From Chiloscyllium plagiosum (taxonomy: Eukaryota), in contig NC_057718.1 in NCBI RefSeq assembly GCF_004010195.1, forward strand, positions 5,595,985 to 5,654,735: DNA of 58,751 bases, in the 5' to 3' direction. A model generated the notes under the pieces. The model searched no databases, had not been told where the DNA came from, and saw only the letters and a program-made list of their open reading frames with translations. Position 1 is the stretch's first letter. Every line of letters begins with the position of its first letter. Made by a program: the position numbers and the translations under genes. Positions 4,104 to 35,864 of the stretch are shown one piece after another.

Positions 4104-4287
4104 AGAGCTGAAAATGTGTTGTTGGAAAAGCGCAGCAGGTCAGGCAGCATCCAAGGAGCAGGAGAATCGACGTTTCGGGCATGAGCCCTTCTTCAGGAAT
4201 CCTTGGATGCTGCCTGACCTGCTGCACTTTTCCAGCAACACATTTTCAGCTCTGATCTCCAGCATCTGCAGTCCTCACTTTCTCCTA
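4104..4287. mobile_element. Penelope-like pLTR-derived fold-back mini-element with minus-strand hammerhead motif (4165-4200)
   Basis: Inverted arms (agagctgaaaatgtgttg..gcagcatccaagga / tccttggatgctgc..cacattttcagctct). Flanking duplication aca(a/g)attctatgaga at 4092-4106 and 4288-4302. Confidence 0.85.
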
Positions 4288-5369
4288 ACAGATTCTATGA
4301 GAACCTTGGAGGGCCATCGGCATTGTTCCTGTGCAGTATTGTTTTATAAGAATGTCAAGAAAGAGAATCAGACAAATCCTTTTGAAAATGAAATATCTTC
4401 AGGCCTATGGGGAAAGAGAAGGGGGTGTGCAATTAATTGACTGTCTCCCTTAAGAGGTTGGCACAGGCACCATGGATCATGTGGCCACTTCCTACCCTGA
4501 GATTCTAGACTATAGAGCAGGCTATAAATTGGAGATACAAATTTAAAGCAAGAAGATATTATCATCAAAGTGTGATAACATTGTGCAATAAATGGCCACG
4601 GTATGCTAGATTTTTAACAAATTGTAGATAGATTTGGGGTAAATTCACCTCTCAGGAAGTATGCAGCTTAGGGCTCATTCACACAATTCCTGGCATACTG
4701 AACCATGGATTCAAAGAACCAGGCCGTTCAACATTTTGTCTCTGCCAGCTTTTCTGCTGGAGCTATCCAGGTAATTGTCCCTGGGCAGATGGTCAGGACA
4801 AAAGGGTATATAACCCTAATAATTGAACTTGATTCTTCAGGGGTGATGTCTGGAGGTACTTCTTCATAGAAAGGGGTCGCAGGATTCTGGAAATCTCTCC
4901 ACCAGATGTTAATGATGATTTATACTTAATGAACTGACATCTCTTTGCATTTCCATTATGCCCAAACTTCCCCTTAGTATCCCCATTAAAAGCCTTTATG
5001 AAATCTTAAACTCCAGACAATGTTTGAGCTGATTACAGAGAAAGAGAAGAGTAAGTTCTGATGGTGAAGACAACCTGTGTAAGACCTCTTAATTAAAAAA
5101 GGCCAAACGTGGATTCATAATTTCAAAAATTGAGATCAAACAGGTTGTTGTTAATCAAGGGTGCTAAGATTTGAAGGAATCAGGTTGTGGTTAGATGGAG
5201 TTAAGAAGCATCTCAACTATGATTTAAGTGAATGGGCTGAATGGCCTCATCCTGTTCCTAACTGGAGCAACTTATTGTGACATTGAGAATTGAACAGATC
5301 AGGGACTGAAGTCTGTGTGAATTGTGGAACAAGTATGTTAATATGTATAAAAGTATTATTTGGTAATGC

Positions 5370-5481
5370 TGGTGTTGGACTGGCATGTACAAAGAACTGC
5401 TCCTTCATCCACTAGTTCCAAAAGCTAGTGCTTCCAAATAAACCTGTTGGACCATAACCTGGTGTTATGTGGTTTTTAACT
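5370..5481 (+). mobile_element. Fragment of a second PLE terminal-repeat family
   Basis: aaagctagtgcttccaaataaacctgttggaccataacctggtgtt matches the right arm of the palindrome at 30340-30504. Confidence 0.6.
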
Positions 5482-5625
5482 TTATAAAATTATTGCTAAC
5501 TTAATGTGTCAAATGGCTTATTCTAAATGCATTTGTTTAAATTTATGGGAAGTTACTTTCATGGGAACTTGTTTAATTAATAGTGCACTTATTGCTAGTA
5601 TTGAATAGGAATGCACTGACTATAA

Positions 5626-5915
5626 TTAGATTAGATTAAATTACTTACAGTGTGAAAACAGGCCCTTCGGCCCAACAAGTCCACACCGACCCGCCGAAGC
5701 GCACCCACCCAGACCCATTCCCCTACATTTACCCCTGCATCTAACACTACAGGCAATTTAGCGTGGCCAATTCACCTAACCTGCACATTTTTGGACTGTG
5801 GGAGGAAACCGGAGCACCCGGAGGAAACCCACGCAGACACGGGGAGAATGTGCAAACTCCACACAGTCAGTCGCCCTGAGGCGGGAATTGAACCCGGGTC
5901 TCTGGCGCTGTGAGG
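5626..5915 (-). mobile_element. HE1 V-SINE, slightly 5'-truncated
   Basis: Reverse complement of 3377-3673. Flanking duplication gactat(a/g)at at ~5618-5626 and ~5915-5923. Confidence 0.9.
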
Positions 5916-5924
5916 ACTATGATG

Positions 5925-6225
5925 GTTTACTATGGACCCAGAAGACTGGGTTCGTAATTCACAGAATCAGTTGAAAGCTTACCAACAAAATCTAGAAATG
6001 GAAATATCACGGTTGTCGGATTATTATAAAAAAATCAACTTTGTTCCTGGTCAGGCCTACATGTGACTCCCAATTCCATAGCAACATAGTTGACTCTTAA
6101 TGTCCAGTCTCCTCCCCAGAGTAGCTGAGTAAAGCTACCCCATTGTATCAAAACATTGTTGTCAGTCATATCCAGGGATGGGCAGTTGATGGTGGACTTG
6201 TCAGTGATGCCCTTATCAGGAGAGT
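5925..6225 (+). mobile_element. Degenerate tRNA-derived SINE (second family) whose tail matches the Zenon/Crack-like LINE
   Basis: B-box-like ctgggttcgtaattc, core ggtcaggcctacatgtgactcc, tail agggatgggcag...gccagtgatgccc. Related copies at ~18205-18480, 24725-24970, 27990-28230, 34975-35220 and 52080-52350. Confidence 0.55.
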
Positions 6226-6429
6226 GTATTGTTCTCTTAAATTAACTCCATGAGCGATCTTAGGAATGGATACAGGTTATTGTTATAAACACAGCAGTAG
6301 CTGTTTGACATTGTCTCTATTCTCCCTGTATGATTCAAATCCTTTCTCACTTAAGAAATTATTATTGATTTTTATTTTACAAATGTAACCAGCAGAGCTT
6401 TATCCTCTTGTTCATTGTATCAACTTAAG

Positions 6430-6484
6430 TATTGTCTGGAGTTCCACGTCCTCTACAAACTTCTAATGGGAGCCCGAAGAGGAG
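6430..6484 (+). CDS. Weak candidate internal exon of host gene: (V)LSGVPRPLQTSNGSPKR(S/R)
   Basis: Pyrimidine-rich upstream with ttaAG acceptor, AG|GTCAGG donor. Lies in non-repeat sequence. Ends in phase 2, compatible with the exons at 22355 and 46286. Confidence 0.25.
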
Positions 6485-6694
6485 GTCAGGACAGAGAGGA
6501 AATGTAACTGTTATTTTATATAAATTATTGCCTTCAGGGGAACAATATGCACTTGCGAGTGGTCACAGTGTATGGTAGCGATCCCCAAATGAGAACCTTC
6601 TAATCGTTACATTCTTCAGTTCAGAGTCCAAGTGAGCTCTTTTTGATGCTGGCATTGATTGATAAATCTTGTTTGAAATGTTTGGACCTTGAGG

Positions 6695-6879
6695 TTAATG
6701 AAACATTACAACACTTATAAGGCATCTGGACGTGTGTATGAATAGGAAGGGCTTGGAAGGATAAGGGCCAAATGCTGATAAATAGGACTAGATTAATTTA
6801 GGACAAGTCCACCATCAACTGCCCATGGACAAATTGGACTGAAGGGTCTGTTTCCGTGCTGAACATCTCTATGACTCTA
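6695..6879 (+). mobile_element. CR1 3' end carrying a 25-bp foreign insertion (6802-6826)
   Basis: Matches 1030-1200 except for the inserted segment; ends catctctatgactct. Confidence 0.85.
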
Positions 6880-7049
6880 AGCACTGTTTCCTCAATGAAT
6901 GTGTTGTTCTTCAGTAAAAAATGTAGCTTTATAGTATCAGCAATGTGAGACATACGCTAATGAAAAAGACATAGACATAATTACTGGTCATTGGTAAATT
7001 GTCAGTGTGGTCAGTTATGTATAAAGTAGTTTTCTCACGTATAAAATAG

Positions 7050-7464
7050 CTTTGTTATAGGGAGAGGAAAGAGAGGTCTGAGTCCTTCACTTATAGCACC
7101 ACCTAGTGAGCAGAGTCTACCCTGCACCATGATTGTTGACATAACAAAATTGAACAGAAATATCAACACAGCAATATACAAAGTACACGGTGACTGAAAA
7201 GTGGGACAGGAAATTGTAATAACAGGAGGCTCATAAACAAAGTGTAGTCTGAAGGCAAAATTTTTAATATACGTTGTCTATGATCCTCCTGTTATTACAA
7301 TTTCCTGTCCCACTTTTCAGTCACCGTGTACTTTGTATATTGCTGTGTCGATATTTCTGTTCAATTTTGTTATGTCAACAATCATGGTGCAGGGTAGGCT
7401 GTGCTCATTAGGTGGTGCTATCAATGAAGGACTCAGACTTCTCTTTCCTCTCCCACTAACAAAG
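7050..7464. repeat. Long inverted repeat, ~197-bp arms with ~21-nt spacer
   Basis: 7050-7246 is the reverse complement of 7268-7464. For example caccatgattgttgacataacaaaattgaacagaaatatc pairs with gatatttctgttcaattttgttatgtcaacaatcatggtg. Only scattered mismatches. Confidence 0.95.
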
Positions 7465-7465
7465 T

Positions 7466-7646
7466 GCCATGACCATTACAGACAAAAATAGAAACTGCTG
7501 GAAAAGCTCAGCAGGTCTGGCAGCATTTGTGAAGAGAAATCATAGTTAACGTTTTGGGTCGAGTGACCCTTCCTTCAATAATGCCAGACCTGCTGAGCTT
7601 TTCCAGCAGTTTCTGCTTTTGTTTGTAATGGTCATGGTCTTTGTTA
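7466..7646. mobile_element. Older PLE pLTR fold-back element
   Basis: ccatgaccattacagacaaaa..agaaactgctggaaaagctcagcaggtctggca pairs with tgccagacctgctgagcttttccagcagtttct..tttgtttgtaatggtcatgg. The centre has a degenerate hammerhead complement (aacgttttgggtcgagtgacccttcc). Confidence 0.8.
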
Positions 7647-8133
7647 ACAGGCCAGTGGTTCTAAATTCAAGCTCAACCATTTGGCAGGTTGTATAACTGA
7701 ATTCAATATATCCAGATAATGTATGGCTAGCACCAAAACAACTTAGTTTTTATGCTGTTTTCACTAAAGCATAAACCTGTTTTATAATAAACTCTTCCTG
7801 TAAGTGGTAGATCAGGAAATCTTTTAGAGGAGTGAATACCATATCAATTTTAATCCATAAATTGAAAATATCCTCAGATTACTGGGGAGTCTCTACATGG
7901 AATATTGTAATTTCCTCTGGGAAACTTCACCTTTCAAAATATTGATATGCTGAGAATTTACAAATGTTAAGGGTATTCACTCTGTGCCACTGGGTTTGAC
8001 TTGAACTAGGACTATTCAGTCTTAATCATACTTGTATTTGTTACATATTTTGGCTCAAGGTTTACAAAAGCCTGTTCTTAGTAATTCATCGGAATGATTC
8101 TGGGACTGAGTGGTGAAATCAAGGAAATGATTA

Positions 8134-8973
8134 AAAACAAACACAGAAATTGCTGGAGAAGGTCAGCAGGTCTGGAACTATCTGTGGAGAGAGAAACCAA
8201 GTTCACATTTTGGTCGGGTAAAGTTTCTACAGTTCCCTCGATAACACTTCATCATACCCTGCTTCCTGAAAGGACTCCATTCCATTCTCCCACTTTCTCC
8301 ATCTTTGTAATATTTATTCCAATTATGCCACCTTACAAGGTGGTGTGTCAATGTGACCTCCTTTTTCTGTAAATGACCTGCTGCTGTGCGCTCTGAGCTG
8401 TGTCCAACACATCTCCTGCATTTTTGCCCTCACCCCTTCCTCCCCTTCATCGAATAACCTTCATAGATTCCCCTTGCCTTCAGTCTCCACCCCATCAGTC
8501 TCCACATTCAAATGATCATCGTCCACCATTTCTATCTCCTCCAGCAAGGCACCACCATCTTTCCCTTCCCTTCACTGTCAGCATTCTTCAGGGACTGTTC
8601 CCTCCATGATATCCTGATCAATTCCTAACACTTTGTCAGTCCCCCATGCAATCTTCCCATGCAATTGCAGAAGGTGGAACATCCATGCATTCACCTACAC
8701 CCTCCACACTGTCCAAGGTTTTAAACACCCCTTCCAAATGAGCAAGCTTTTTAAATGTACTGCTTTAAATCTAATCTACTGTATTCGCTGCTCACAATGT
8801 GGTCCCCTCTACACTGGGAGACAAAGTGCAGCTGGGTCAGTGCTTTACTGAATGCCTCTGCCTTGTCTGTAGGAATGATCCTGACTTCATGGTTGCTTGT
8901 CATTTCAATAACCATATTGCTTTCATGCTAACATGAGAGTTAATGTTTTGGGTCCAGTGACCCTTCTTCAGAA
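8134..8973 (+). mobile_element. Decayed Penelope-like element: inverted pLTR piece, RT thumb and GIY-YIG endonuclease remnant
   Basis: ORF 8633-8851 gives FPCNCRR..VQGFKHPFQ..FKCTALNLIYCIRCSQCGPLYTG (Cys linker plus GIY-YIG motif). pLTR-like pieces at 8134-8220 and 8935-8973. Confidence 0.8.
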
Positions 8974-9900
8974 TAGATTGTGAAACGTATGACTTCCCTC
9001 TGCTTATGGCCTGGGAAGCCACTAAGTTGTACCTAAATCCTACAAAATCTGATAAAAGAAATAATTAGCCACCCCATTGACCAAGGAATTGGAAATGGAA
9101 ATGCCATACATGTACTCTGGATGGGGAACATCAACATCTATCACCAAAGATGGCTCAACAGCAACACTACTGATTGAGCAGGTCAAGTCCTTAAGGACAT
9201 AGGTCTATGTGGCGAATGTTGAGGGAAACCAAGGGAAAAACATACATGGCCTCTTCGTTATTAATATACCTCTTGCGGATGCATCTGTCCACAACAGTAT
9301 CATTAAGAGTGACCATTCCAGAGTCCTTTTGCAGATGAATTCCTACTTTTACATTGAGGATTCCCTTCATATTGTTGTGTAGAATACTACTGTATTATAT
9401 AGGATAGATTTTGCATGGACTCAGCAACTGAACACTGAGCATCCATGACATGCTGTCGGCCACCAGCAGTGCAGAATTATATCCTAACACAATCGGCAAT
9501 GTCATGGCCTCGCATCTCCCCCACTCTACCATTACTATCAAGCCAAGAGCAACTCAAGGCATACCTAATACTGGGTAGTCAACCTGGTGCAGCTACAAAA
9601 CAGGACTGCCTGCATGCTGTGCAGTGTTAGCAGGAGTAACAGACAGAACTAAATGATCACACAGCCAACATATCAGATCTAAGCTTTGAAATCCTGATAT
9701 GAATAGTAGACAATTAAACAATTCACTGATGGAAGAGACTCCACAAATGTCCCCACCCTCGATGATCATTGAGTCCGGCATATCAGCATTTGGGAAAGTC
9801 TTCAGCCACAAGTGTTAAATAGATGATCCATTTTGGCCTCCTCCACAGATCCATAATATTGCAGATGCCAGCCTTCAGTCAATTCCACACAAAATCAAGA

Positions 9901-10548
9901 GAAGATCCCAAGATGGTGGCAAAGGGCTGTGTTGCATTTGGCTCCTGAGCGCATGTTCGGTCACTCATGGCTCATGCCATGGGTTCTGTCACATCCACGC
10001 AGCTTCATTGGTGTCTTTCCAGCTCGGTCATGTTTTTTTGTTTTGGTTGCCCTGGGGCCTCCTTCTCCTGTGGGAGGCCAGACCCCTCCCCCCCATGCAT
10101 CTTCATCCCCACTCCACCTCGGGTGGCGGCATCGGAAAAATGAGCCAGGACTCCGTTGGTCGATTTCCAATATCGGAGGAGCTACAGGATTCATGCAGCG
10201 TGACCGTCTCCAGCTTGGAGATGGCGGATGTGGAGGTGATGGTGCCAGTGGTGGCAGGAAAGGGGCACATTGCCAGGACTCTTGGGGGGGTGGGTGTGGG
10301 GTGCGGGGTGCGATGTTGGACAGCAGTAACAGGGGGAGCAGAGAGGGTGAAGGCTACAGAGAGGGAAAGATGAACTTTTGAAGTTGTTTCAGTTTTAGTA
10401 ATATCAATTTAATATTAATTTATTCAGTACTTTGGTATTTATACAATTCATTCATTCATTTATTCTGTAATCCAAGATGGCACCGAAATTTGGTGCCATT
10501 ATCCACTTTTCACTATACCTTGGTACAAGTGACAGTATATTAAATAAA
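9901..10548 (+). mobile_element. Non-autonomous element with GC-rich body and Rex1/Babar-like 3' tail
   Basis: Starts caagatggtggc; ends cacttttcactataccttggtacaagtgacagtatattaaataaaa. Interrupts the flanking LINE, which resumes at gttgaaggcac. Confidence 0.5.
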
Positions 10549-10824: not shown

Positions 10825-11078
10825 CATTTAGTCAACATCAACCTGATCCCTGATGCTCTCTCTGATCTTTTCCTTCAGTACATCTTGGTGCAAATGAGTG
10901 AAGAAGGGAAATGAAGGCGACTGATGTAAACATTGACCGAGTGTGGAATCAGGAAGCCCTAGTGGAACTGGACTTAGTGGGATTCAGGAGGATAACTGGT
11001 TGAAGTCATACCTGGCACAAAAGAAAATGGTTGTGAAAACATTCAGGCTTGTACTAACGAATGGCAAGTAGTATTGCC

Positions 11079-11295
11079 AGGAGAAAGTGAGGTCTGCAGA
11101 TGCTGGAGATCAAAGTTGAAACTTTATTGCTGGAACAGCACAGCAGGTCAGGCAGCATCCAGGGAACAGGAGATTCGACGTTTCGGGCACAGGCCCTTCT
11201 TCAGGAATGAAGAAGGGCCTGTGCCCGAAACGTCGAATCTCCTGTTCCCTGGATGCTGCCTGACCTGCTGTGCTGTTCCAGCAATAAAGTTTCAA
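11079..11295. mobile_element. PLE-derived mini-element with 88-bp-arm palindrome
   Basis: 11116-11203 is the reverse complement of 11208-11295, with loop GGAA. Flanking duplication aagtagtattg(c/t)c at 11066-11078 and 11295-11307. Confidence 0.92.
11173..11208 (-). ncRNA. Minimal hammerhead ribozyme motif
   Basis: Minus strand reads auuc-CUGAAGA-A-GGGC-cugu-GCCC-GAA-ACGU-C-gaau. Core intact, stem I auuc/gaau, stem II GGGC/GCCC, palindromic ACGU stem III, GUC cleavage triplet. Confidence 0.75.
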
Positions 11296-11699
11296 AGTAG
11301 TATTGTCACCACACAAGTGTCAGGTAATGACAATATGGGAAACTTAATTTCCTTAACGGCTTTCTCCATCTTTAACATTGCACAGCATGAGGGAACAATA
11401 GCGTGTCATCACTTTTAAGAAGAACTTGCAGGTCTGCCTTACTTTATGTTCAGAAGCAGAAAAAATGCATTAATACTATTACTTGCATCAAATGATAGCT
11501 TGTAATTAATACTTTTCTCTTGTGGACACATTGCTAAGCTATTTGACCATGTCAGGTTATCAGTAAGATGTCTTTGTGATTGGTGTCTAGCTCGGCCCAG
11601 TAAATAGTGGGTTGTTCATAGTTCATGGCTACTTAGGTCACCACTTTTAGCCCATACTTAAATGACCTTGTCAATCTGATGTTGAACACTACAGTCTGT

Positions 11700-13848: not shown

Positions 13849-14063
13849 AAGAACAAGAGGTGATCTTACTTAAACACTAAAGATTCCGCGAGGGGTTGAC
13901 AGGGTTCAGGCTCAAGAGTGTGTTTTCCATCAGAAGTAGGGGCAGTATTTATAAGTAAGTACCTCCCATATTTAAACCTGAATTTCTTTTGTCAGAGAGT
14001 CGTCAAGGTTGGGAATTTCCTTTCCCAGACATGAATTGAGCCTCACTCCCTGGTGCTATGAGG

Positions 14064-15240
14064 CAGTAGTGGATGAGGGTAGAGCAGTGGATGTAGTATA
14101 CATGGATTTTAGTCAGGCATTTGATAAGGTTCCCCATGGTAGGCTTATGCGGAAAGTCAGGAGGCATGGGATAGTGGAAAATTTGGCCAATTGGATAGAA
14201 AACTGGCTAACCGGTCGAAGGCAGAGAGTGGTGGTAGATGGTAAATATTCAGCCTGGAGCCCAGTTACAAGTGGAGTTCCGCAGGGATCAGTTCTGGGTC
14301 CTCTGCTGTTTGTAATTTTTATTAATGACTTAGATGAGGGAGTCGAAGGGTGGGACAGTAAATTTGCAGATGATACGAAGATAGGTGGAGTTGTGGACAG
14401 TGAGGAGGGCTGTTGTCGGCTGCAGAGGGACTTAGATATGATGCAGAGCTGGGCTGAGGAGTGGCAGATGGAGTTCAACCCTGCCACGTGTGAGGTTGTC
14501 CATTTTGGAAGAAGAATAAGAATGCGGAATACAGGGTTAATGGTAGGGTTCTTAGTCAGGTGGAGGAACAGAGGGATCTTGGGGTCTATGTACATAGATC
14601 TTTGAAGGTTGCCACTCAGGTGGATAGAGTTTGTAAGAAGGTCTATGGAGTATTATCGTTCATTAGCAGAGGGATTGAATTCAAGAGTCGTGAAGTGATG
14701 TTGCAACTGTACAGGACTTTGGTTAGGCCGCATTTGGAGTACTGTGTGCAGTTCTGGTCGCCTCACTTTAGGAAAGATGTGGGAGCTTTGGAGAGGTTGC
14801 AGAGAAGATTTACCAGGATGTTGCCTGGAATGGAGAGGAAGTCGTACGAGGATCGGTTGAGAGTTCTCGGCCTTTTCTCGTTGGAACGGCGAAGGATGAG
14901 GGGTGACTTGATAGAGGTTTATAAGATGATCAGAGGAATAGGTAGAGTAGACAGTCAGAAACTTTTTCCCCGGGCACAACCGAGTGTTACAAGGGGACAT
15001 AAATTTATGGTGAAGGGTGGAAGGTATAGGGGAGATGTCAGGGGTGGGTTCTTTACCCAGAGAGTGGTGGGGGCATGGAATGCGCTGCCTGTGGGAGTGG
15101 TAGAGTCAGAATCTTTGGTGACCTTTAAGCGGCAATTGGATAGGTACATGAATGGATGCTTAAGCTAGGACAAATGTTCGGCACAACATCGTGGGCCGAA
15201 GGGCCTGTTCTGTGCTGTATTGTTCTATGTTCTATGTTCT
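14064..15240 (+). mobile_element. Young 5'-truncated CR1 LINE (RT to 3' end)
   Basis: Two long ORFs separated by one frameshift: [52 protein letters not shown]. Tail (ATGTTCT)n. Confidence 0.95.
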
Positions 15241-16466: not shown

Positions 16467-16507
16467 GGGCTAAGGTCAGTCAGTAAGATGAGTGATCAGA
16501 TAATCTA

Positions 16508-17256
16508 GGAGAAAGTGAGGACTGCAGATGCTGGAGATCAGAGCTGAAAATGTGTTGCTGGAAAAACACAGCAGGTCTGGCAGCATCCAAGGAGCATCCT
16601 GCTCCTTGGATGCTGCCTGACCTGCTGCGCTTTTCCAGCAACACATTTTCAGCTCTGATCTCCAGCATCTGCAGTCCTCACTTTCTCCTAGAAGATTTTA
16701 ACCTACTGCGAATCCTCTTGCAAGGATGCCTTCCTTGAAGAAGCTCTCTTCCTCCCTCTACAAGGATTTCAGTGAGTCCCTCTCTCACTGCACACCCCAG
16801 GTCATCTCCTCTGCCTCCACCAAGGACATGCAGGTCCTTGGACTCCTTCATCGCCAGACCATAGCAACACGACAGCTGGAGGAAGAGCACCTCATCTTCC
16901 GCCTAGGAACCCTCCAACCACAAGGGATGAACTCCGATTTATCTAGTTTCCTCATTTCCCCTCCCCCCACCTTGTCTCAGTCCATCCCTCAAACTCAGCA
17001 CCACCTTCCTAACCTGCAATCTTCTTCCTGACCTCTCTGGCCCCAACCCCACTCCGGCCTATCACCCTCACCTTAACCTCCTTCTACCTATCGCATTTCC
17101 AACACCCCTCCCCCAAGTCCCTCCTCCCTACCTTTTATCTTAGCCTGCTTGGCACACTCTTCTCATTCCTGAAGAAGGGCTCATGCCCGAAACGTCGATT
17201 CTCCTGCTCCTTGGATGCTGCCTGACCTGCTGCGCTTTTCCAGCAACACATTTTCA
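16508..17256 (+). mobile_element. Internally deleted Penelope-like element with inverted 5' pLTR copy
   Basis: ~91-bp-arm palindrome 16506-16690, then an ORF start fused to the GIY-YIG C-terminus (RQLEEEHLIFRLGTLQPQGMNSD), C-rich pLTR and hammerhead. Exact 14-bp flanking duplication gatcagataatcta at 16494-16507 and 17257-17270. Confidence 0.92.
17165..17200 (+). ncRNA. Minimal hammerhead ribozyme motif in PLE pLTR
   Basis: attc-CTGAAGA-A-GGGC-tcat-GCCC-GAA-ACGT-C-gatt; predicted cleavage 3' of C17196. Confidence 0.75.
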
Positions 17257-17479
17257 GATCAGATAATCTACCTTTGCTATTAGTTGAGGGATAAATTTTG
17301 GCCACTGGGACAACTCTTTCTGTCCTCACTATGGTAACATAGGGCCTTTGATGAAGAACAGCTCCATGGGTCTTTTCAAAGATAGAATGAGATTATTATT
17401 TTTTGTAATCCATCTCCATTCACCTACCTTTGCTACAGACTCTTTTCTAACAAATATTCAAAGAGATGTTGTCTGCCTT

Positions 17480-18489: not shown

Positions 18490-20305
18490 ATACTCAATCA
18501 CCTGACCTCCACAGCCTTCTGTGGCAATGAATTCCATTGGTTCACCACTCCCTGACTGAAGAGGTGTCTGTTGTCTCCCTTCTAAAATGTCTTCCCTTTA
18601 CTCTAAGGCTGTGCCCTCAGGTCCTAGTCTCTCCTACCAATGCAAACATTTTCCCAAGATCCACTCTGTCCAGGCCGTTCAGCATTCTGTAAGTTTCAAT
18701 TAGAACCCCTCTCATCCTTCTAAACTCCATCGAGTATAAACCCCAGAGTCCTCAAACATTCCTCATATGTTAAGCTTTTCATTCCTGGGACCATTCTCGT
18801 GAAACTCCTCTGAACCTGCTCCACGGCCAATACATCCTTCCTGAGATATGAGGCACAAAACTGCACACAATACTCCAAATGTGGTCTGATTAGAGCCTGA
18901 TAGAGTCTAGAGTCATAGAGATGTACAGCACGGAAACAGACCCTTCAGTCCAACTCATCCATGCCTATCTGATACCCTAAACCAATCTAGCCCCATCTGC
19001 CAGCACCCGGTCAATACCCCTCTAAACTCTTCCTATTTGTATATCCATCCAGATGCCTTTTAAATGTTGCAATTGTACCAGCCTCCATCACTTCCTCTGG
19101 CAGCTCATTCCATACATGCACCACCCACTGCGTGAAAAAGTTGTCATAGAGTCATAGAGATGTACAGAACGGAAACAGACCCTTCCATCCAACCTGTCCA
19201 TGCCGACCAGATATCCCAACCCAATCTAATCCCACCTGCCAGCACCTGGCCCATATCCCTCCAAACCCTTCTTATTCATATACCCATCCAAATGTCTCTT
19301 CAATGTTTCAATTGTACCAGCCTCCACCACATCCTCTGGCAGCTCATTCCATACACATACCACCCTCTGCATGAAAAAGTTGCCCCTTAGGTCTCTTTTA
19401 TATCTTTCCCCTCTCACCCTAAACCTATGCCCTTTAGTTCTGGACTCCCCAACCCCAGGTCTATTTACCCTATCCATGCCTCTCATAATTTTGTAAACCT
19501 CTATAAGGTCACCCCTCAGCCTACAACGCTCCAGGGAAAACACCTCCACCCTGTTTAGCCTCTCCCTGTAGTTCAAATCCTCCAACCCTGGCAATATCCT
19601 TGTAAATCTTTTCTGAACCCTTTCAAGTTTCACAACATCTTTCTGATAGGAAGGAGACCAGAACTGCACGTAATATTCCAACAGTGGCCTAACCAGTGTC
19701 CTGTACAGCCGCAACATGACCTCCCAACTCCTGTACTTAATACTCTAACCAATAAAGGAAAGCATACCAAACATCTTTTTCACTATCCTATCTACCTGCG
19801 ACTCCCTTTTCAAGGAGCTATGAAGCTGCACTCCAAGGTCTCTTTGTTCAGCAACACTCCCTAGGACCTTACCATTAAGTGTATAAGTCCTGCTAAGATT
19901 TGCTTTCCCAAAATGCAGCACCTCACATTTCTCTAAATTAAACTCCATCTGCCACTTTGCAGCCCATTGGCCCATCTCATCCAGGTCCCATTGTAATCCG
20001 AGGTAACCTTCTTCACTCTCCACTACACCTCCAATATGGAGCCTGAGAAGTACATTTCCACTTTTAGATTGAAGTTCTGTCAAAATAAATGCCATCATTG
20101 CATTTGCCTTCCTTACTACTGACTCATTCTGCAAGTTTACCTTGAGAGAATCCTGGATTAGAACTCCCAAGTGTCTTTGCACTTCAGACTTCTGGACTTT
20201 TTCCCCATTTAGAATATAGTCCGTGCCACTATTCTTCCTATCAAAGTGCATGACCTTACACATTCTCATGTTGTACTCCATCTGCCACTTCTTTGCAATC
20301 AAACA
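18490..20305 (-). mobile_element. Nested LINEs: older CR1-type host (18490-18908 and 20037-20305) split by two tandem younger CR1 3' ends (18909-19143 and 19144-20036)
   Basis: ORFs 19226-19717 and 19745-20329 are CR1 RT. The tail agagtcatagagatgtaca occurs at 18910 and again at 19148. Confidence 0.88.
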
Positions 20306-21144
20306 AGCGTCATGCTTTTTAGACTTCACCGTATCGCTCTTTTAATTTTGCAATCTACATCCAGCTGGATTTATTTCCTAGCATCTTTGCATTCATATAA
20401 ACTCCAAAGAAAATCAATGTTACAGATGTTGTACATTAAACTGGGGAACACAAATTGCTCCTAAACAAAACATTTATATGACAAAAAACCCATTTATAAA
20501 ATAATAGGAATGATAAACAATATGCCTTCTTAACCTTCCAAGCTATTGACTCAATGTTATAATTGGAAATGTTTGTGAGTAAACACATGTAGAAAGCCTT
20601 AATTATTGACATGCTTTGATGAGTAGTGTTTTAGGCGATGTATAGTATAATGGACAAATTGAGGGTTCTAACCCTTCAATGGATTTGAGACAGTTTAAGA
20701 AGTTGCAGGCTGAAACAATGTTAGAACTCTCACAACCCCTGAAGTCTATAATGTTTGCATAATCCATTTTTGTCACTTTTGTCACTTAACCATGCCTTGA
20801 TCTTTTATAGCCAAGTGCTGACCAGGGGTCAGTTCCACAGAGTCCAGCAGAGCAACTGTGATTAATTGGAGAGTTACAGATGCTGATCTGTCACCATCTG
20901 AATGCTTAGTAAGAACCCAGGCCAGAGTAGACATTTAACTGAGGCGCCTGTTTGCCTTCTCAGTTACATAAACATGTAGCGAGGCATAAATTACACGGTA
21001 TAATTTTGAAGAGGGGGAGGGAAGTTATCAATCATGTGCCAGCTTTTCGAAAGATTTTTTCAATTTGTCTGTCCACGCCTCTGCTTTTTGCTCACTCCCC
21101 CATCCTGACTCTGCAAACATTTTCTTCAAAAATAAATTTCTAAA

Positions 21145-24722: not shown

Positions 24723-24724
24723 TT

Positions 24725-25329: not shown

Positions 25330-25935
25330 TACTGAAACAAACATGGGGAATGCTGGAGCAAATCAGCAGATCTGACAGCATCTGTGGGGAGAGAAAGAGA
25401 GTTAACGTTTATGGTCTGGTAATGACTCTCCTTCAGAACTGAAAGATGTTAGAAAATGGGACAAAAGCAGAACTCGCGGAAGAAACTCAGTAGGTCTGTG
25501 GAGAGAAAGCAGAGTTTACATTTCTGAACTCCTCTTCAGAACTCATAATGGAAAATGCTTTTTTAATATTTTTGACAGAAGTGGCAGAGGAAGCGAAAGA
25601 GGAAATGTTGTGGAGGTCCAGTATAAAAGACAAAGTGGTTGTTAATAGTGGAGAAGGACAAAAAGAGGTGTAAATAGGATGTGTAAGGGAGAGAATGGGT
25701 CCTGTCTGGAGCAAGGTAATTTGTTGAAATGGAAAACAACTGGGAGGTTATGGTCATTCCCAGTCTGTGTTTTCCTTTTCGAATGTAAAGGAAACTGTAT
25801 TAAGAGCAGTAAATGCAATAGATTAGGTTGAAAGAAAAATAAGATTAAGGTGGTTTATTGAAATGGTGAGCTGCTGGGCGGTCAGGATCATTTCTATGGT
25901 CAGAGCGGAGGTGTTCTGCAAAACATTCACTGTGT
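25330..25935 (-). mobile_element. Decayed PLE pLTR tandem fragments and 3' body
   Basis: aatgctggagcaaatcagcagatctgacagcatctgtggggagagaaagagagttaacgttt..ccttcagaact, repeated at 25470-25543. Confidence 0.55.
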
Positions 25936-29799: not shown

Positions 29800-30116
29800 C
29801 ATAGAACCCCTACAGCTTGGAAGTAGGCCTTTCGGTCAAACAAGTCAACACCGACCCTCTGAAGAGTAACCCGCCCAGACCCATTCCCCTACCCTATATT
29901 TATCCCTGACTAATGCACCTAACTTACACATCCCTGAACACTAAGGGACAATTTAGCATGGTCAATTCACCTAACCTGCACATTTTTTGGACTGTGGGGG
30001 GAAACCCATGCAGACACATGGAGAATGTGCAAATTCCACACAGACAGTTGCCCAAGGCTGGAATCGAACCTGAGTCCCTGGTGCTGTGAAGCAGCAGTGC
30101 TAACCACTGAGCCACA
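29800..30116 (-). mobile_element. HE1 V-SINE
   Basis: Reverse-complement head (gcagcagtgctaaccactgagccac), V core and tail. Confidence 0.87.
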
Positions 30117-30339
30117 GATGCCTCCAAACCTGTTGAGTTTCACGAGCAATTTCTCTTTTTGTTTCTTGCTCACATATGTCCAATATCAAGCAAGCAACAG
30201 AGAAATTTAAGGTGAGAGCTGTTGTATGTGTGCCTTGTCATTAAGAACCTCATATACTGTGTGTATCCAGTGTTGAGACGCTGCCTGGCCTTTTCTCTGT
30301 TTTGGGTATTCTGCCGATATTGGACTGGGGTGGGAAAGA

Positions 30340-30504
30340 TCAGAAGTTACATGACACCAGGTTATAGTCCAACAGGTTTATTTGAAATCACAAGCTTTCC
30401 GAGCACTACTCTTTTGTCACTTCACCTGACAAAGAGTGCAGTCAAAAAGCTTGTGATTTCAAATAAGCCTGTTGGACTATAACCTGTTGTTGTGTGACTT
30501 CTGA
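30340..30504. mobile_element. Fold-back mini-element of the second PLE terminal family
   Basis: caggttatagtccaacaggtttatttgaaatcacaagcttt pairs with aaagcttgtgatttcaaataagcctgttggactataacctg. Centre has a decayed hammerhead-like ctgacaaagagtgcagtcaaaaagct. Confidence 0.75.
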
Positions 30505-30649
30505 CCCTGGGTATTGTGAGCTGCATACATAGAAATTGGTTCTTTACTGTACCATCTGTTTCATAATTTATAATGTGTTTACAGTTTTAAATAAACTAAC
30601 ACAAAGTTAACTGGTTTCTGATGAGTGATCAATTAAAAAGGACATAGAA

Positions 30650-31563
30650 AGATGGGTTAGTAAATTTGCAGGTGACACTAAAGTCAATGGAGTTACACTT
30701 AGTGCCGAAAGATGTTGCAGGTTTCAGACGGACATAGATAAGCTACAGAGCTGGGCTGAAAGTTGGAAAATGGAACTTTATGCAGAAAAGTGTGAAGTGA
30801 TTCACTTTGGAAGGAGCAACAGGAATAAAGAGTACTGGGCTAACGGTAAGATTCTTGGTCGTGTCGATGAGCAGAGAGATCTCGGTGTTCATGTACATGG
30901 ATCCCTGAAAGTTGCCACCCAGGTTGTTAGGTTTGTTAAGAAGGTATACACTATGTTAGGTCTTATTGGTAGAGGGATTGGGTTTTGGAGCCATGAGGTC
31001 ATGTTGCAGCTGTACAAAACTCTTGTGCAGCCACACTTGCAGTATTGTGTACAGTTCTGGTCACTGCATTATAGAAAGGATGTGGAAGCTTTGGAAAGGA
31101 TTCAGAGGAGATTTACTAGGATGTTGCCTGGTGTGGAGGGAAGGTCTTATGAAGAAAGGCTGAGGAAATTGAGGCTGTTTTTGTTTGAGAGAAGAAGGTT
31201 AATTAGAGGTGAATTAATTGAGACATATAACATAATCAAAAGTTTAGATAGGGTGGATAGTGAGAGCCTTTTTCCTCGATCATGGTGGCTAGCATGAGGA
31301 GACATAGCTTTAAATTGAGGGGTGATAGATATAGGACAGATGTCAGAGGTAATTTCTTTACTCAGAGAGTAGTAGGGGCATGGAATGCCTTGCCTGCAAC
31401 ATTAGTAGACTCACCAACTATAAGGGCATTTAAATGGTCATTGGATAAACGTATGGATGAAAATGGATTAGTGTAGGTTAGATGGGCTTCAGATAGGTTC
31501 CACAGGTCAGCACAACATCGAGGGCTGAAGGGCCTGTACTGTGGTGTAATGTTCTATGTTCTA
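30650..31563 (+). mobile_element. CR1 LINE, RT C-terminus to 3' end
   Basis: ORFs 30770-31297 and 31282-31476 (KCEVIHFG, YCVQFWS, FFTQRVVGAWN); tail atgttctatgttct. Confidence 0.92.
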
Positions 31564-32444
31564 AAATGATGACAACTGGAACCTGAACTGTCCCATTGAT
31601 GCTGTATCTTTTCTGAAGTGTCTTGTCTGAGCTTACAAACCTTATACACTCTTCACATCAATACACCTTGGTTCCTGAATTTTATGCCATTTTTTCTCCT
31701 TTCTTTTACCCCACCTACTTTTCCGACCTTTGCCGACACACCAAAATCTCCGTGTTCCCCATTTTGTAACTTAACTTTTATTTCCTTACTTTAATGGCTG
31801 GGAAAGTTGAGAAAGCTGTTTAAAACTACAAGGAATCCTTGATTTTTGTCAAACAATATAGAACCACGGCAAAGATTTTTATAAATTACGAGTTAGACTT
31901 TGGTCAGTCAGTGTATTGTATTCAGCTGTGAAGAGCACACATTAGAAATGATGTGCAGGTTTTGGAGAGGGTGCAGAGGTGGTTTACTTGGATAGCATCA
32001 GGACTGAGGTGACTCCAGGTATGTAGGGAGGCTAGAAAAGCAGTGTTTCTTTTTGGAAGAGAGAAGATCAAGATCAAGATCAAGTCGTGTTCAAACTCGA
32101 GGGATTGTGGCAGATTAAATTGGAAGAACAGTGGCCAGAGGCAGGAGGGCCAGTCATCAGCTAACACAGATTGAGGGTACGAGAGGTGACAAGAGGAAAT
32201 GCAGCATAGTGTTCTGAGCTGCAATGTGCTGCCTGAAAGGAGGCAAGTTTTGTGGTAACATTAGAAAGAGAATTAACTGTGAATTTGAAAAGAAAACGTT
32301 TACTGTTTTGGGATAAGCGCATGGAGGAGGGTGGGTGGATGGAGTGGATCTATCGATTTGTTTTTTTAACGTATTGATGCAGACACAATGTGCAGCTCTT
32401 CCTAGTGTTATAGAAGTTTAAGTACTTTTCTTTAGCACAATAAC

Positions 32445-32780
32445 TATAGATATGGGAGTAGAAGGAGACCATTCAGCCCATCTAGTTTGCTCTGCCATTC
32501 AACAATATCATGGGCTGCTCTGTTAATCTTCATCTTCCTGCCTTTTCCCCATAATCCCTGATCTTCTTACTGATTAAAAATCTGTCTATCTCAACCTTGA
32601 ATGTATTTAATTACCCAGACACGACAGCCCTCTGTGTTAAAGAATTCCACACGTTTAATATCCGCTGAGAGAAAAAAATTCCTCCTCACCTCTGTCACAA
32701 ACGGGTGACCCCTTATTCTGAAATTATTCCCTCTGGACTCTCTCATAAAGGGAAACAAATTTTCCACATCAATGCCTTTT
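32445..32780 (-). mobile_element. Older CR1-type 3' end
   Basis: ORF 32591-32800 gives RGNNFRIRGHPFVTEVRRNFF. Confidence 0.7.
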
Positions 32781-33424
32781 AACTGTTTCTCTGACTGCAT
32801 CTCTGTTGCCCTGTCCCAGGGCGACAGGAATTGGATGAATTCAGATCACCAACTAGATTTCGACTCTGTAATCAGTATGACAGTGAAAAATTCGCAGTTT
32901 AAACATTAGTCCCTCTTCACCACTCCACCCACCTTTATATAAATTAACTAGTGATATTGACAGCAGGTACTGGAATAAGTAAGGGGATGATGACTCAGCT
33001 CTCGCTTCTGCTCGATTATCTCTGTAAATTGAGTTAATGGAAGAGAAAAAATTGGCCAAGTGTGAAATGGGCAGCTGAATCCTAGCCTCGAATGTGCATC
33101 CTCAATATTCAGCACTTTGCTGTCGGCAACTATGTATTCTTTTTATTTAGTTGGGGTTTTGGGCATCACTGGCTGGGTTAGCATTTATTACCCATCCCTA
33201 ATTGCCCTGAAAGTGATGATGATGGTTCTTGAACTGCTGCAGTCCCTATGGTGTAGGGAAACCCATTGTGCTATTTAGTGAGCAAGCTCTGGATTTTGAC
33301 CCAGCGCCGGTGAAGGAACAGCGATGTTTCCAAGACAGGATGGTGGTTGCCTTGGAGGGAAGCATGCATATATCTGCTTCCATTTAAAGAATCACAGAAA
33401 TGTTACGGTGTAGAAGAAATGTAA

Positions 33425-34270
33425 GCATAGAACAGTATAGCACAGGAACAGGCCCTCAGCCCACCTTGTCTATGCTAACCATGATACCATTTTAAACAAA
33501 ATCTGTCTGCCTATACATGGTTCATATACTTGTATTCTCTGCCTGTTCATGTGTCTGTCCAAATGCCTCTTAAATGTTGCTACACTATCTCCTTCTACCA
33601 CCTCCCCAGGCAGCGTGTCTCAGGTGCCTGCCACCCTCTGTGCAAAAACGTTTCCTTGCTCCTTATGTCTCATCAGTTATTGTACACTTTCCACTTGCAT
33701 TTGACCTCCCAAAATGCATCACCTCACATCTGGATTAAACTCCATTTGCCATTTTAGATTAGATTAGATTAGATTACAGTGTGGAAACAGGCCCTTCGGC
33801 CCAACAAGTCCACACCGACCCGCCGAAGCGAAACCCACCCATACCCCTACATTTACCCCTTACCTAACACTACGGGCAATTTAGTATGGCCAATTCACCT
33901 GACCCTGCACATCTTTGGACTGTGGGAGGAAACCGGAGAACCCGGAGGAAACCCACGCAGACACGGGGAGAACGTGCAAACTCCACACAGTCAGTCGCCT
34001 GAGGCGGGAATTGAACCCGGGTCTCTGGCGCTGTGAGGCAGCAGTGCTAACCACTGTGCCACCGTGCCGCCCACTCAACTTTCAGACTGATCTGAATCCT
34101 GCTGCCTCCTTCCTCGTTATCCACAACTTCACCAACATTTGTGTCACCTGCAAATTTACCAACCAGACTACCTACATTTTCAACCAAATCATTTATACAC
34201 ATTACAAACAACAGAGGTCCCAGTGCTGATCCTTGCAGACCACTGGTTACAGATCTGCAGTCAGAGAAAA
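33425..34270 (-). mobile_element. Decayed CR1 split by the HE1 SINE at 33754-34072
   Basis: Tail catagaacagtatagcacaggaacaggccc; RT fragment GPLLFVMCINDL..GKFAGDT in ORF 34047-34313. Confidence 0.8.
33754..34072 (-). mobile_element. HE1 V-SINE, full length, young
   Basis: (TTAGA)n tail through gccaccgtgccgccc head complement. Confidence 0.93.
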
Positions 34271-35734
34271 ACATCTTTCTCTCTCTCTCTCTATCTCCAC
34301 CCCCCCACCCCACCTTTAAACTGACCTCTTTACTGGACTTTCACTCACCTGCTCTAATATGTCTTATGCTGCCTTGGTCTTTAAACTATGGGATAGTTTT
34401 CAACCTCTAAGGCAGTATATAAACGCAAATATATATTTGTTGTATCAACACATGGAGGTGATAGCAGTGGACTGAGGAAACACTCTGAATGCCAGGCTGA
34501 TAGACAGATGAGGTTGAATTTGAGCAGACCTTGGACGATAGTTCCTACTTTCATGTAGATGTACTGCTGCTTGTAAAATCAAAATTATAATCAGGGTCCA
34601 AATCATGCAGAATGAGTGTCGGTACATTGCTCCCTTGAAGTAAAATTGAAATAATTAAATGGGTTCTTTTCTTAATGCCCTGTTTTGCCAAAGGGAGGGA
34701 TGTTTGCTCCTGTTAGTGGAACACTTCCATATCAGGCACTTGTTGACAATGTTAAGCCCTCCCAAGTCAGGTGTGACCCTCGTGGGTATAAGGGAAAGCT
34801 CTCTCTCTCCTGCAGAGGGAGTGTAGTTCAGGAAGCTGTGATTCCCTCAGCGTGGTTGTTTCCATTACCCACCCTCACAAGCTCTCCTTCAGTGAAGGTT
34901 TCCCCTGGTATTTTGTTGGTAGATGTTTTAAGAAATGAATTTGTGGAACCATTGCCCATCTTTATATGACTCAGCACACCAGAGGGCACATGAAGGTCAA
35001 GCACATTGCTGCGGCTCTGGAGTTAAATAGAGCCTGGACCAGCTAAGGCTGGTAGACATCTTTCCTGAAGGACGTTAATGAAATAGGTGTTTTTAAAATG
35101 ACAATCCAGTAATGTCATGGTCACCATTATTGATACAGCTCTTTTTAAAATTTCAGCTGTCACTTAATTCAATGAATTTAAATTACCCAATTACCATGGT
35201 GGGATTTGAACTCCATGGCATGTTGTTTCATCCTGTCTATTTGGAATGATTCAAAATGAAGCTTCTGCAGAATTAGCAGTCTTTGTTTGTTTGTGTGTGT
35301 GTGTGTGTGTTTGAGAGAGAGCGCTCTGACATGCTTGCTGCCTGTGCCTCACCAGCCTCATATACACTATCCAAAGGTTTTTGGGTTGTGGAGAAAGAGT
35401 AGTGAATTTGGACTACATCAGCATTTTTCATTTATGTAACAGCTTTGACAGAGTCAGAAGAATCCTGAGATTCTTTACAAGGGAGTGCACATCTAGTGAG
35501 TTGGGAGCTCGTAGAAAAGGTGACCTTAGCCATAATGGGAGTTTGTATGGGACATCGTAAAGGATGAAAGCGTGACAGAAAGTTAGCAATGTTTGGCAAG
35601 GGAATTCCAGAACTTAGAAGCAAGAAAGATAAAGGCAGAGCTGCCAGTTGTCAGAGATGAAAAAAGAGGGATATGCAAGTGGTCAGAATTGGAGGGGTAC
35701 CAAGATCTTTCAAACGGGCATGATATGAGAACGG

Positions 35735-35864
35735 AGGAGAAAGTGAGGTCTGCAGATGCTGGAGATCAGAGCTGAAAATGTGTTGCTGGAGCAGCGCAGC
35801 AGGTCAGGCAGCATCCAGGGAACAGGAGAATCGACGTTTCGGGCATAAGCCCTTCTTCAGGAAT
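35735..35864 (-). mobile_element. Single-arm PLE pLTR insertion with hammerhead motif (35829-35864)
   Basis: Same sequence as the left arms at 11079 and 16508. Flanking duplication atgatatgagaa(c/t)gg at 35720-35734 and 35863-35877. Minus strand reads attcCTGAAGAaGGGCttatGCCCGAAACGTCgatt. Confidence 0.88.

What the first reader, a model, noticed from the sequence alone, without database searches (positions are those of the whole stretch)
4104..35864. Family of tiny hammerhead-bearing PLE-derived insertions sharing one breakpoint at the ribozyme edge
Seen: three separate insertions (4104-4287, 11079-11295, 35735-35864) are made only of the same ~130-nt pLTR segment. Each has its own 13-15 bp flanking duplication, and in each the inverted arm stops at exactly ...cccttcttcaggaat (4200, 11208, 35864), the 5' edge of hammerhead stem I. 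Older copies end at the equivalent place (~7579, ~8973, ~25440, ~25543). Established: PLE pLTRs carry minimal hammerheads and often have inverted 5' pLTR copies. Inference: a defined ~130-nt ribozyme-bounded unit is copied and integrated on its own, either as a retrozyme/SINE-like non-autonomous family or as a stereotyped abortive PLE intermediate. The boundary is ~30 nt from the predicted GUC cleavage site, so simple self-cleavage does not explain it.
Basis: partly seen in the sequence, partly recalled or inferred. Interest (0 to 1): 0.72.

Follow-up and report, generated by a model that had tools for sequence, protein, structure and literature searches.

The report
Penelope retroelement stubs ending at cap
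These tiny insertions are mostly dead-end copies of the first ~130 letters of an ordinary Penelope-like retrotransposon's RNA, and an extra G at their shared edge suggests that edge is the capped start of the RNA, a clue to how these poorly understood elements copy themselves.

Summary
The three insertions and their 12-15 bp duplications are real. The shared edge is a genome-wide hot spot, but a fuzzy one (about -4 to +14, peak at the A of ATTCC, here +1), not one base. Exact counts in the 3.56-Gb genome lose 22%, 28% and 18% of copies at +1, -1 and -2, against 1.3% per base from mutation; there is no peak at the hammerhead cut site. The unit is the pLTR of an autonomous GIY-YIG Penelope-like element. 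The three copies belong to three parental subfamilies that also have long copies, and tandem arrays are almost absent, so a retrozyme or SINE family of its own is not supported. Where copies leave the parent at +1, the preceding base is G in 3,897 of 6,520, and in 23 of 28 joints where neither partner arm nor parent supplies it. +1 sits in an initiator-like TCATTCC. Best reading: reverse transcription starts internally at the two tail sites of the mRNA's 5' pLTR and runs off at the cap; one product gives a solo stub, two give a head-to-head palindrome. The start site itself is inferred, not mapped.

The parts
35735..35864 (-). Copy 3: solo pLTR, +1 (35864) to +130 (35735), subfamily A1; 5' end ambiguous between +3 and -2 by 4-nt microhomology with the target
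35829..35864 (-). Minimal type I hammerhead: stem I 5' strand ATTC, CTGAAGA core, extra A, stem II GGGC/GCCC, GAAAC-GTC, predicted cut C32|G33 (35833|35832); stem I is 4 bp in subfamily B and has a T-T mismatch in A
   Evidence: sequence; architecture as in PMC4209133; cleavage not tested
35735..35767 (-). ~33-nt PLE 'tail' (+98 to +130) between the two recurrent 3' ends (~+93-97 and +129-131)
35720..35731 (.). Left copy of target-site duplication of copy 3 (right copy 35863-35874)
4104..4200 (-). Copy 1, tail-less arm from ~+97 to +1, subfamily A2; the base before +1 is G (also explicable by the partner arm)
4200..4287 (+). Copy 1, tail-bearing arm from +44/+45 to +130
4092..4106 (.). Left copy of 15-bp duplication of copy 1 (right copy 4288-4302, 1 mismatch)
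11079..11208 (-). Copy 2, tail-bearing arm +130 to +1 (matches parent to -2 by microhomology with partner), subfamily B
11208..11295 (+). Copy 2, tail-less arm +6 to ~+92
11066..11079 (.). Left copy of 14-bp duplication of copy 2 (right copy 11295-11308, 1 mismatch)
16507..17264 (+). Internally deleted parent: inverted pLTR arm (16507-16596), pLTR +38..+130 (16597-16689) running on into the element's own 5' body (16690-16814), then endonuclease end, 3' UTR and second pLTR (16815-17264, hammerhead edge at 17165). Shows that the unit lies at both ends of the element and that the tail is internal
   Evidence: same continuation in L020
42253..42608 (-). Parent ORF fragment (minus strand) with a tail-only arm starting at +79; a copy that does not use the hot spot
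7467..7637 (-). Older, different hammerhead-bearing family: head-to-head palindrome with one arm stopping at the stem I edge (7579); relatives at ~8940-8973, 25351-25440, ~25467-25543
   Evidence: parent not recovered

Best explanation
The stubs are run-off products of an autonomous endonuclease-positive Penelope-like element (Neptune-type by its linker zinc-finger motif). Step 1 (inferred): RNA polymerase II starts at the A of TCA(+1)TTCC in the upstream pLTR, so the capped mRNA begins with the hammerhead, then the tail, then the body, and ends with a second pLTR. Step 2 (shown in vitro for an anole PLE, inferred here from the two recurrent 3' ends): the RT-endonuclease nicks the target and starts cDNA internally, at either end of the tail (~+95 or +130). 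Step 3 (inferred from end counts): if it engages the downstream pLTR it yields ordinary long or scattered 5'-truncated copies; if it engages the 5' pLTR it has only 95-130 nt to copy and runs off the RNA's 5' end, often copying the cap G. Step 4 (shown by junctions): the cDNA end is joined by 0-4 nt microhomology, with some trimming, to the target (solo stub with a duplication) or to a second cDNA primed on the opposite strand (head-to-head palindrome with a tail on one arm). The stubs lack the upstream promoter region and the downstream body and are mostly dead on arrival; they track the parent's subfamilies.
For: Hot spot: exact counts 39,008 (+5), 29,950 (+2), 23,341 (+1), 16,821 (-1), 13,735 (-2), 7,625 (-9) versus 1.3%/nt control. 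A CpG-free 29-mer upstream occurs 16,402 times, a CpG-free 34-mer downstream 72,492 times. In 187 kb of unselected sequence 17 of 41 arms end between -3 and +14, 6 between +26 and +75, 18 run through (hand tally). Independent reads of a related or the same organism show a 4-5-fold depth step at +1 and the top 5' loose end at +1 (96 reads, unrelated flanks). Extra G: base before +1 in copies that leave the parent is G 3,897, A 1,875, T 748 (T by subtraction); background before A is G 22%, A 31%, T 21%. No G excess one base either side: 18 of first 100 before +2, 20 of first 100 before -1. In joints CATAAGCCCT-N-ATTCC, 23 of the 28 rows (of first 100 of 188) whose -1 base is supplied by neither partner nor parent have G; 60 of first 100 of 202 in GCC-N joints. 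Of 19 independent unselected G loci, 5 have a G found in neither partner nor target and 5 more share only the G with it. Both arms can end at +1: 6 GGAATTCC-centred pairs in the first 100 rows; L028 has G on both arms. Untemplated 5' G is attributed to cap copying in L1/SVA (PMC3287187). Internal initiation at two sites bounding the tail, with product length set by the RNA's 5' end, in PMC11167929. Promoter and start site inside the pLTR in D. virilis Penelope (PMC2377424). Short and long arms share subfamily variants.
Against: No RNA evidence for a start at +1: in the one raw RNA run that laid reads (1,929 reads, about 2% of the run), both strands were covered about equally and no place where many molecules begin was reported; the second raw run laid none. 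The edge is fuzzy: 6,609 exact copies end at +2, about a quarter are lost between +5 and +2, and 23 of 100 joints carry the parent's -1 C, so some templates extend upstream or other starts exist. In one joint class G is rare (2 of 22; A 13, C 6, T 1), and in tail-to-+1 joints it is 4 of 15. Part of the G excess has other sources: 14 of 36 A's in the antisense arm follow G, stem II snap-back could template the CG joints, and 9 of 19 G loci also have A/AT/ATT microhomology or are ambiguous. The initiator match is a 7-nt motif recalled from general knowledge, and ATTC is also constrained by stem I. In the small unselected sample the upstream and downstream words were 4 versus 8, a weaker step than the genome count. 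The ORF start at about +167 got no database support.
Confidence: 0.66

Rival explanations
1. The stubs are, at least in part, a self-renewing non-autonomous family: a solo pLTR is transcribed from an internal promoter starting at +1, and because RT starts internally at the tail, each round regenerates the same 95-130 nt unit without carrying flanks.
For: Very high copy number (at least 6,520 exact copies leaving the parent at +1); pLTRs act in trans in rotifers (PMC3846280); internal initiation would hide 3' flank capture; one haplotype was 10 short to 1 long in the sample.
Against: Three window copies fall in three parental subfamilies, each with long copies; 14 label changes versus 15.2 shuffled and 5 identical sets mixing short and long (only 79 columns, 76 arms, sample enriched for short). 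The +18 C variant is 1,615 of 7,625 in through-copies and 14 of the first 100 G-type copies. In the anole element RNA downstream of the RT start sites was needed (PMC11167929), which a stub lacks.
Confidence: 0.12
2. The template's 5' end at +1 is made by RNA processing (an unknown cut, or exonuclease trimming halted by the hammerhead fold or bound protein), and the G is a non-templated C added by RT rather than a copied cap.
For: +1 is exactly the first paired base of stem I; the edge is fuzzy; no start site was seen in RNA.
Against: The G excess is confined to the position before +1; stem I is only 3-4 bp and folds weakly (z -0.1 to -0.6); +1 is not preceded by AG, so it is not a 3' splice site, and the base at -2 in G copies is mixed.
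Confidence: 0.12
3. No fixed RNA end: RT stalls or switches template at the hammerhead, and microhomologies between the arms (TTC, TCA, GA, AT) pile junctions up at this place.
For: Junction bases before +2 follow the partner arm (C 45, T 37 of first 100); many joints are microhomology-ambiguous.
Against: A polymerase moving 3' to 5' on the RNA would meet the stems at +36 and +24, not +1; solo insertions with unique flanks end at the same place (10 of 20 loci); untemplated G is not predicted.
Confidence: 0.07
4. Non-LTR retrozyme: monomers released by hammerhead self-cleavage and circularised.
For: Hammerhead core is intact; retrozymes derive from pLTRs (bioRxiv 10.64898/2026.07.22.740005).
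Against: No end peak at the cut site (1.2%); unit is not cut-site-to-cut-site; 15 direct head-to-tail joints in the genome.
Confidence: 0.03

Closest known systems
Endonuclease-positive PLE structure: pLTRs, inverted 5' copy, optional 30-40 bp tail (PMC8557442; passages seen)
   Same: Same parts and arrangement; GIY-YIG endonuclease and linker zinc-finger motif in long copies; hammerhead in the pLTR.
   Different: Describes 5' truncation as frequent, without a fixed end point or an extra G in the passages seen.
PAc, Poseidon of Anolis carolinensis (PMC11167929; main text and start of methods read, supplement not seen)
   Same: Two internal RT start sites bounding the tail; hammerhead cleavage not needed, no RNA ends at the cut site; product length set by the RNA's 5' end.
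   Different: In vitro with uncapped defined templates; no genomic 5' hot spot, start site or cap signature is reported in the text read (its Fig. S2 coverage plots were not seen and may show the 5' edge).
Adineta vaga Penelope solo pLTRs and junction palindromes (PMC3846280; first fifth and passages seen)
   Same: Solo pLTRs, head-to-head palindromes, initiator-like motifs in pLTRs, microhomology joins.
   Different: Solo pLTRs without duplications are ascribed to recombination or deletion and palindromes to self-priming on an antisense template (left open); here stubs have duplications and the G points to a sense, capped template.
Dispersed minimal hammerheads of metazoan PLEs (PMC4209133; results and discussion read)
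   Same: Same minimal motif with an extra base after A9 and ACGU palindrome; mostly single, or opposite-strand pairs, 'probably related to truncated PLEs'.
   Different: No boundary analysis; in D. virilis the stem I edge is an intron end, which is not the case here.
Non-LTR retrozymes (bioRxiv 10.64898/2026.07.22.740005; three of five parts read)
   Same: pLTR-derived, non-coding, type I hammerhead.
   Different: Defined by tandem arrays with two or more hammerheads; absent here.
Full-length L1/SVA insertions with untemplated 5' G (PMC3287187; passages seen); retroviral minus-strand strong-stop DNA (recalled)
   Same: Run-off at a capped 5' end leaving a G; short cDNA of the 5' terminal repeat.
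   Different: Different element classes; strong-stop DNA is transferred, not integrated as such.

Membership tests
Endonuclease-positive Penelope-like element (parent) | C-terminal GIY-YIG endonuclease on the same strand, upstream of the pLTR | tested here: met
   L003 frame reads ...YIGET...R..EH...; Pfam GIY-YIG E=0.0098, 16.6 bits, below the 22.6 cut-off: weak by profile, clear by motif
Endonuclease-positive Penelope-like element (parent) | PLE-type reverse transcriptase domain | not tested
   RT region was masked or deleted in the loci held; window fragment 42233-42580 had no Pfam hit
Endonuclease-positive Penelope-like element (parent) | pLTR at both ends, inverted copies, optional 30-40 nt tail | tested here: met
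   window 16507-17264, L020; 3' ends at ~+95 and ~+130
Endonuclease-positive Penelope-like element (parent) | Minimal hammerhead motif in the pLTR | tested here: met
   motif by inspection and fold; Rfam gave no hammerhead match among 14 hits at E<=1; cleavage untested
Neptune clade | Zinc-finger-like motif in the RT-EN linker | tested here: met
   C-x4-C-x2-C motif in L003; criterion from PMC8557442, shared with Nematis
Neptune clade | Placement in an RT tree | not tested
   no RT sequence held
Non-LTR retrozyme | Tandem array of two or more hammerhead units | tested here: not met
   15 tail-to-+1 joints with up to 4 nt between in the genome; longer-period arrays were not counted
Non-LTR retrozyme | Unit bounded by the self-cleavage site | tested here: not met
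   862 of 72,492 at the cut site versus 5,772 of 23,341 at +1
Non-LTR retrozyme | Circular monomer RNA | tested here: inconclusive
   no tail-to-head joint listed for the raw RNA run among the rows shown; library unsuited
SINE-like non-autonomous family | Own lineage with diagnostic mutations absent from the autonomous partner | tested here: not met
   tree of 76 arms, 79 columns: labels not clustered; low power
SINE-like non-autonomous family | Own transcription from an internal promoter | tested here: inconclusive
   RNA reads on both strands, no discrete start
SINE-like non-autonomous family | Dispersed copies with unique flanks and target-site duplications | tested here: met
   also true of dead-end products
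Catalogued Dfam/Repbase family | Match to a curated consensus | not testable with these tools
   no repeat library is held

The most novel reading that the evidence does not exclude
This genome is a record of more than ten thousand integrated 'strong-stop' cDNAs that maps a PLE transcription start to the base, shows the template is the capped sense RNA, and shows that head-to-head PLE palindromes come from two cDNAs primed on opposite strands by a dimeric enzyme; the same rule (start site at the hammerhead's stem I edge) may hold for other vertebrate PLE families, and full-length transposition may need a jump from this run-off cDNA to the 3' pLTR, as in LTR elements. A bolder variant, that some stubs are re-transcribed and re-copied without trace, is not excluded.
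Probability: 0.45. Interest if true: 0.7.

Novelty: new member of a known kind. Interest (0 to 1): 0.5.

Why it matters
The objects are familiar PLE debris, but the shared end carries mechanistic information. How PLEs make pLTRs, tails and head-to-head palindromes is unresolved; PMC3846280 leaves open whether the template is sense or antisense, and PMC11167929 shows internal initiation only in vitro. If the edge is the cap, simple k-mer counting in any PLE-rich genome maps the element's start site, explains why most insertions are tiny, and makes a twin-priming model directly testable with the existing in vitro system. It also warns against annotating such stubs as MITE-, SINE- or retrozyme-like families.

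Tried and rejected
Rfam scan: no hammerhead model matched; the hits were hairpin artefacts below gathering scores. Hammerhead self-cleavage as the source of the edge: rejected. 3' splice site at +1, as at the stem I edge in D. virilis: rejected, no AG before +1 and mixed bases at -2; no recurrent splice-like joint was listed (15 of 34 joint rows shown). G as a subfamily variant: rejected, -2 is mixed (GG 1,492; A/T/C+G 2,405). G from purine-rich targets: not sufficient, G is 18 of 100 before +2. Untemplated-G test at the CCCTTCTTC joint gave no support (2 of 22). RNA: no listed holder on record as RNA; raw run X21 gave no discrete start, X22 laid 0 reads, X20 is only guessed to be RNA. ORF start at +167: Pfam and the protein atlas were uninformative. 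The unselected genomic sample stayed at 20 stretches of 10 kb (187 kb unmasked), so a full junction census was not possible; rows set aside from the 41-arm tally were arms with masked or cut-off 5' sides and arms of more diverged families. Four loci duplicating others were dropped from the tree (L001, L021, L030, L057). Tallies from listings cover only the first 100 rows, in genome order. Literature searches found no paper reporting a fixed 5' end or cap G for PLE stubs; subscription journals, Dfam/Repbase notes and supplements were not seen. Two look-ups of earlier scan findings returned nothing.


Full report
Numbering. +1 is the A of ATTCC (window 35864, minus strand); -1 is the parent base before it; +130 is window 35735. 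'Arm' means one copy of the unit in either orientation.

1. The observation. The three insertions are as described and are flanked by duplications of 15 bp (1 mismatch), 14 bp (1 mismatch) and 12 bp (perfect). The arm that stops at ...caggaat is the tail-less arm in copy 1, the tail-bearing arm in copy 2 and the only arm in copy 3. Once the parent is known the ends are not exact: the parent's antisense strand continues GGAAT-GAG, and copies 2 and 3 match it for two more bases through microhomology. The window also holds young copies that end elsewhere (16507-17264, 42253-42608, 56769-56841). The four 'older copies' are another family; they stop at a like motif, but only 7467-7637 has a junction that can be checked.

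2. The parent. The window lies in a 3.56-Gb vertebrate genome rich in CR1-like fragments; that it is a cartilaginous fish is my impression from the repeats, not a tool result. Long copies run on upstream of +1 through about 200 nt of 3' UTR into an ORF end with a C-x4-C-x2-C linker motif and a GIY-YIG domain (Pfam E=0.0098, below cut-off): an endonuclease-positive PLE, Neptune-type by the criterion in PMC8557442 (passages). The unit also occurs at the element's 5' end: in window 16597-16814 and in L020 the tail runs on into the same body sequence. An ORF opens there at about +167 but got no database support. The 3' ends of arms fall in two groups, about +93-97 and +129-131, the classic 33-nt tail. 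+1 to +36 is a minimal type I hammerhead of the kind in PMC4209133; Rfam does not detect it.

3. Is the edge a hot spot? Exact pattern counts, both strands, for the young A subfamilies with a fixed 3' end at +33: 39,008 from +5, 29,950 from +2, 23,341 from +1, 16,821 from -1, 13,735 from -2 and 7,625 from -9 (+40). Loss per base is 8%, 22%, 28%, 18% and 8%, against 1.3% when the pattern is extended downstream (36,007 of 39,008 over 6 nt). A CpG-free 29-mer at -47..-19 occurs 16,402 times and a CpG-free 34-mer at +33..+66 72,492 times, so about three quarters of young arms end in between. In 187 kb of unselected sequence (hand tally, older subfamilies included) 17 of 41 arms end at -3..+14, 6 at +26..+75 and 18 run through, which is nearer one half; the two words above occurred 4 and 8 times there. 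Reads from public runs of a related or the same organism give a 5.3-fold (raw RNA) and 4.1-fold (DNA contigs) depth step at +1, and the top 5' loose end is at +1.

4. What makes the edge? Not the ribozyme cut: a purine stands before +33 in 862 of 72,492 copies (1.2%), before +1 in 5,772 of 23,341 (24.7%). Not a splice site: no AG precedes +1. A stall at the stems would leave ends at +24 or +36. The informative feature is the base before +1 in the 6,520 copies that leave the parent there: G 3,897, A 1,875, T 748 by subtraction, where background before an A is G 22%, A 31%, T 21%. The base at -2 is mixed, so this is not a variant. One base to either side there is no G excess (18 of the first 100 before +2; 20 G to 19 A of the first 100 before -1). 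Because the partner arm is itself rich in GA (14 of 36 A's), I tested joints where it cannot supply G. At CATAAGCCCT-N(1-2)-ATTCC (188 hits, first 100 read) the -1 base was C 59, G 23, T 16, A 2; of the 28 not supplied by partner or parent, 23 were G. At GGGCATAAGCC-N(1-2)-ATTCC (202 hits) G was 60 of the first 100, though stem II snap-back could give some of these. At CCCTTCTTC-N-ATTCC G was only 2 of 22, and 4 of 15 in tail-to-head joints; these two results do not support the reading. Of the first 20 non-GG G loci (19 independent; 10 palindromes, 10 solos), 5 have a G found in neither partner nor target, 5 share only the G, and 9 have further microhomology or are ambiguous. In one search all 4 listed joints onto +1 with letters between end in G (12 of 63 rows shown). 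An untemplated 5' G is the accepted sign of cap copying in L1 and SVA (PMC3287187, passages), and TCA(+1)TTCC fits the YYANWYY initiator (consensus recalled). D. virilis Penelope has its start site, with an initiator, inside the pLTR (PMC2377424, passages). Direct RNA evidence is lacking: reads lay on both strands about equally and no discrete start was reported, as expected for copies carried in host transcripts.

5. Family or by-product? On a tree of 76 arms (53 short, 19 long, 4 intermediate; 79 columns, poorly resolved) the short/long label needs 14 changes versus 15.2 for shuffles, five sets of identical sequences contain both, and the three window copies sit in three subfamilies that each have long copies. 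Direct head-to-tail joints number 15 in the genome, so it fails the retrozyme definition used in bioRxiv 10.64898/2026.07.22.740005 (three of five parts read). The test has low power; a minority of re-copied stubs is not excluded.

6. Mechanism. PMC11167929 (main text read) showed in vitro that an anole PLE enzyme, predicted to be a dimer, nicks both strands, starts cDNA internally at two sites that bound the tail, makes a product whose length is set by the RNA's 5' end, and does not need hammerhead cleavage. Applied here: a capped mRNA starting at +1 carries the tail sites only 95-130 nt from its 5' end; initiation there yields a run-off cDNA with or without tail and often with the cap copied. 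One such cDNA joined to the target gives copy 3; two, primed on opposite strands and joined end to end by microhomology with some trimming, give copies 1 and 2. Both arms can reach +1 (6 GGAATTCC-centred pairs in the first 100 rows; G on both arms in L028). Initiation in the downstream pLTR gives the long copies. Shown here: the hot spot, the G excess, the junction microhomologies, shared subfamilies. Inferred: the start site, the cap, twin priming, dead-end status. Confidence 0.66; rivals are self-renewing stubs (0.12), a processed uncapped end (0.12), stalling plus microhomology (0.07), retrozyme (0.03).

7. Novelty. Solo pLTRs, dispersed minimal hammerheads and head-to-head palindromes with an optional tail are all described (PMC3846280, first fifth and passages; PMC4209133; PMC8557442). 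PMC3846280 ascribes solo pLTRs to recombination or deletion and palindromes to self-priming on an antisense template, and leaves the template question open. Seven searches found no report of a fixed 5' end or cap G in PLE stubs; subscription papers, repeat-library notes and supplements (notably Fig. S2 of PMC11167929) were not seen and may hold it. Verdict: a new member of a known kind, not a new family, with a mechanistic clue of real use to PLE specialists. Interest 0.5.

Noticed in passing
window 7050-7464: 197-bp inverted repeat, 93% complementary, 21 nt between arms, with ends resembling the PLE tail end; perhaps a head-to-head palindrome of another family.
   Followed up: no
window 30340-30504: 59-nt inverted repeat with a decayed hammerhead-like centre; looks like a palindrome of a further PLE family.
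   Followed up: no
window 7467-7637, 8130-8182, 8940-8973, 25351-25543; L031:2282-2313: Older hammerhead-bearing family whose copies also seem to start at the stem I edge; parent not recovered, so the edge is untested.
   Followed up: partly
window 16507-17264: Whole-element skeleton with a large internal deletion; both the inverted and direct 5' arms carry tails.
   Followed up: yes
window 35846-35766 (minus strand): A short upstream ORF starting at +19 in stem II in the A subfamilies; subfamily B has GTG there. In the anole element the main ORF starts at stem II.
   Followed up: no
L056 and L057 (G000:C1, 3.7 kb apart): Same insertion with the same flanks twice: a local segmental duplication after insertion.
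   Followed up: no
L040:8128-8320, L049:1326-2058, L064, L004: Complex insertions with partial tandem re-copies of the arm or of the same 3' flank, suggesting repeated priming at one target.
   Followed up: no
window 13982-15168, 19226-20341, 30629-31297, 42885-43636, 49805-51818, 54218-54766, 56533-58324: Many CR1-like LINE fragments (label from recalled motifs, no family search run); masked stretches near 1640-2140, 50390-51190 and 56842-56990.
   Followed up: no
run X20 on L003:1474-1527: Contig depth step at +1 is about 20-fold in this guessed-RNA run versus 4-fold in DNA; contig depth is a poor measure, so only a lead.
   Followed up: no
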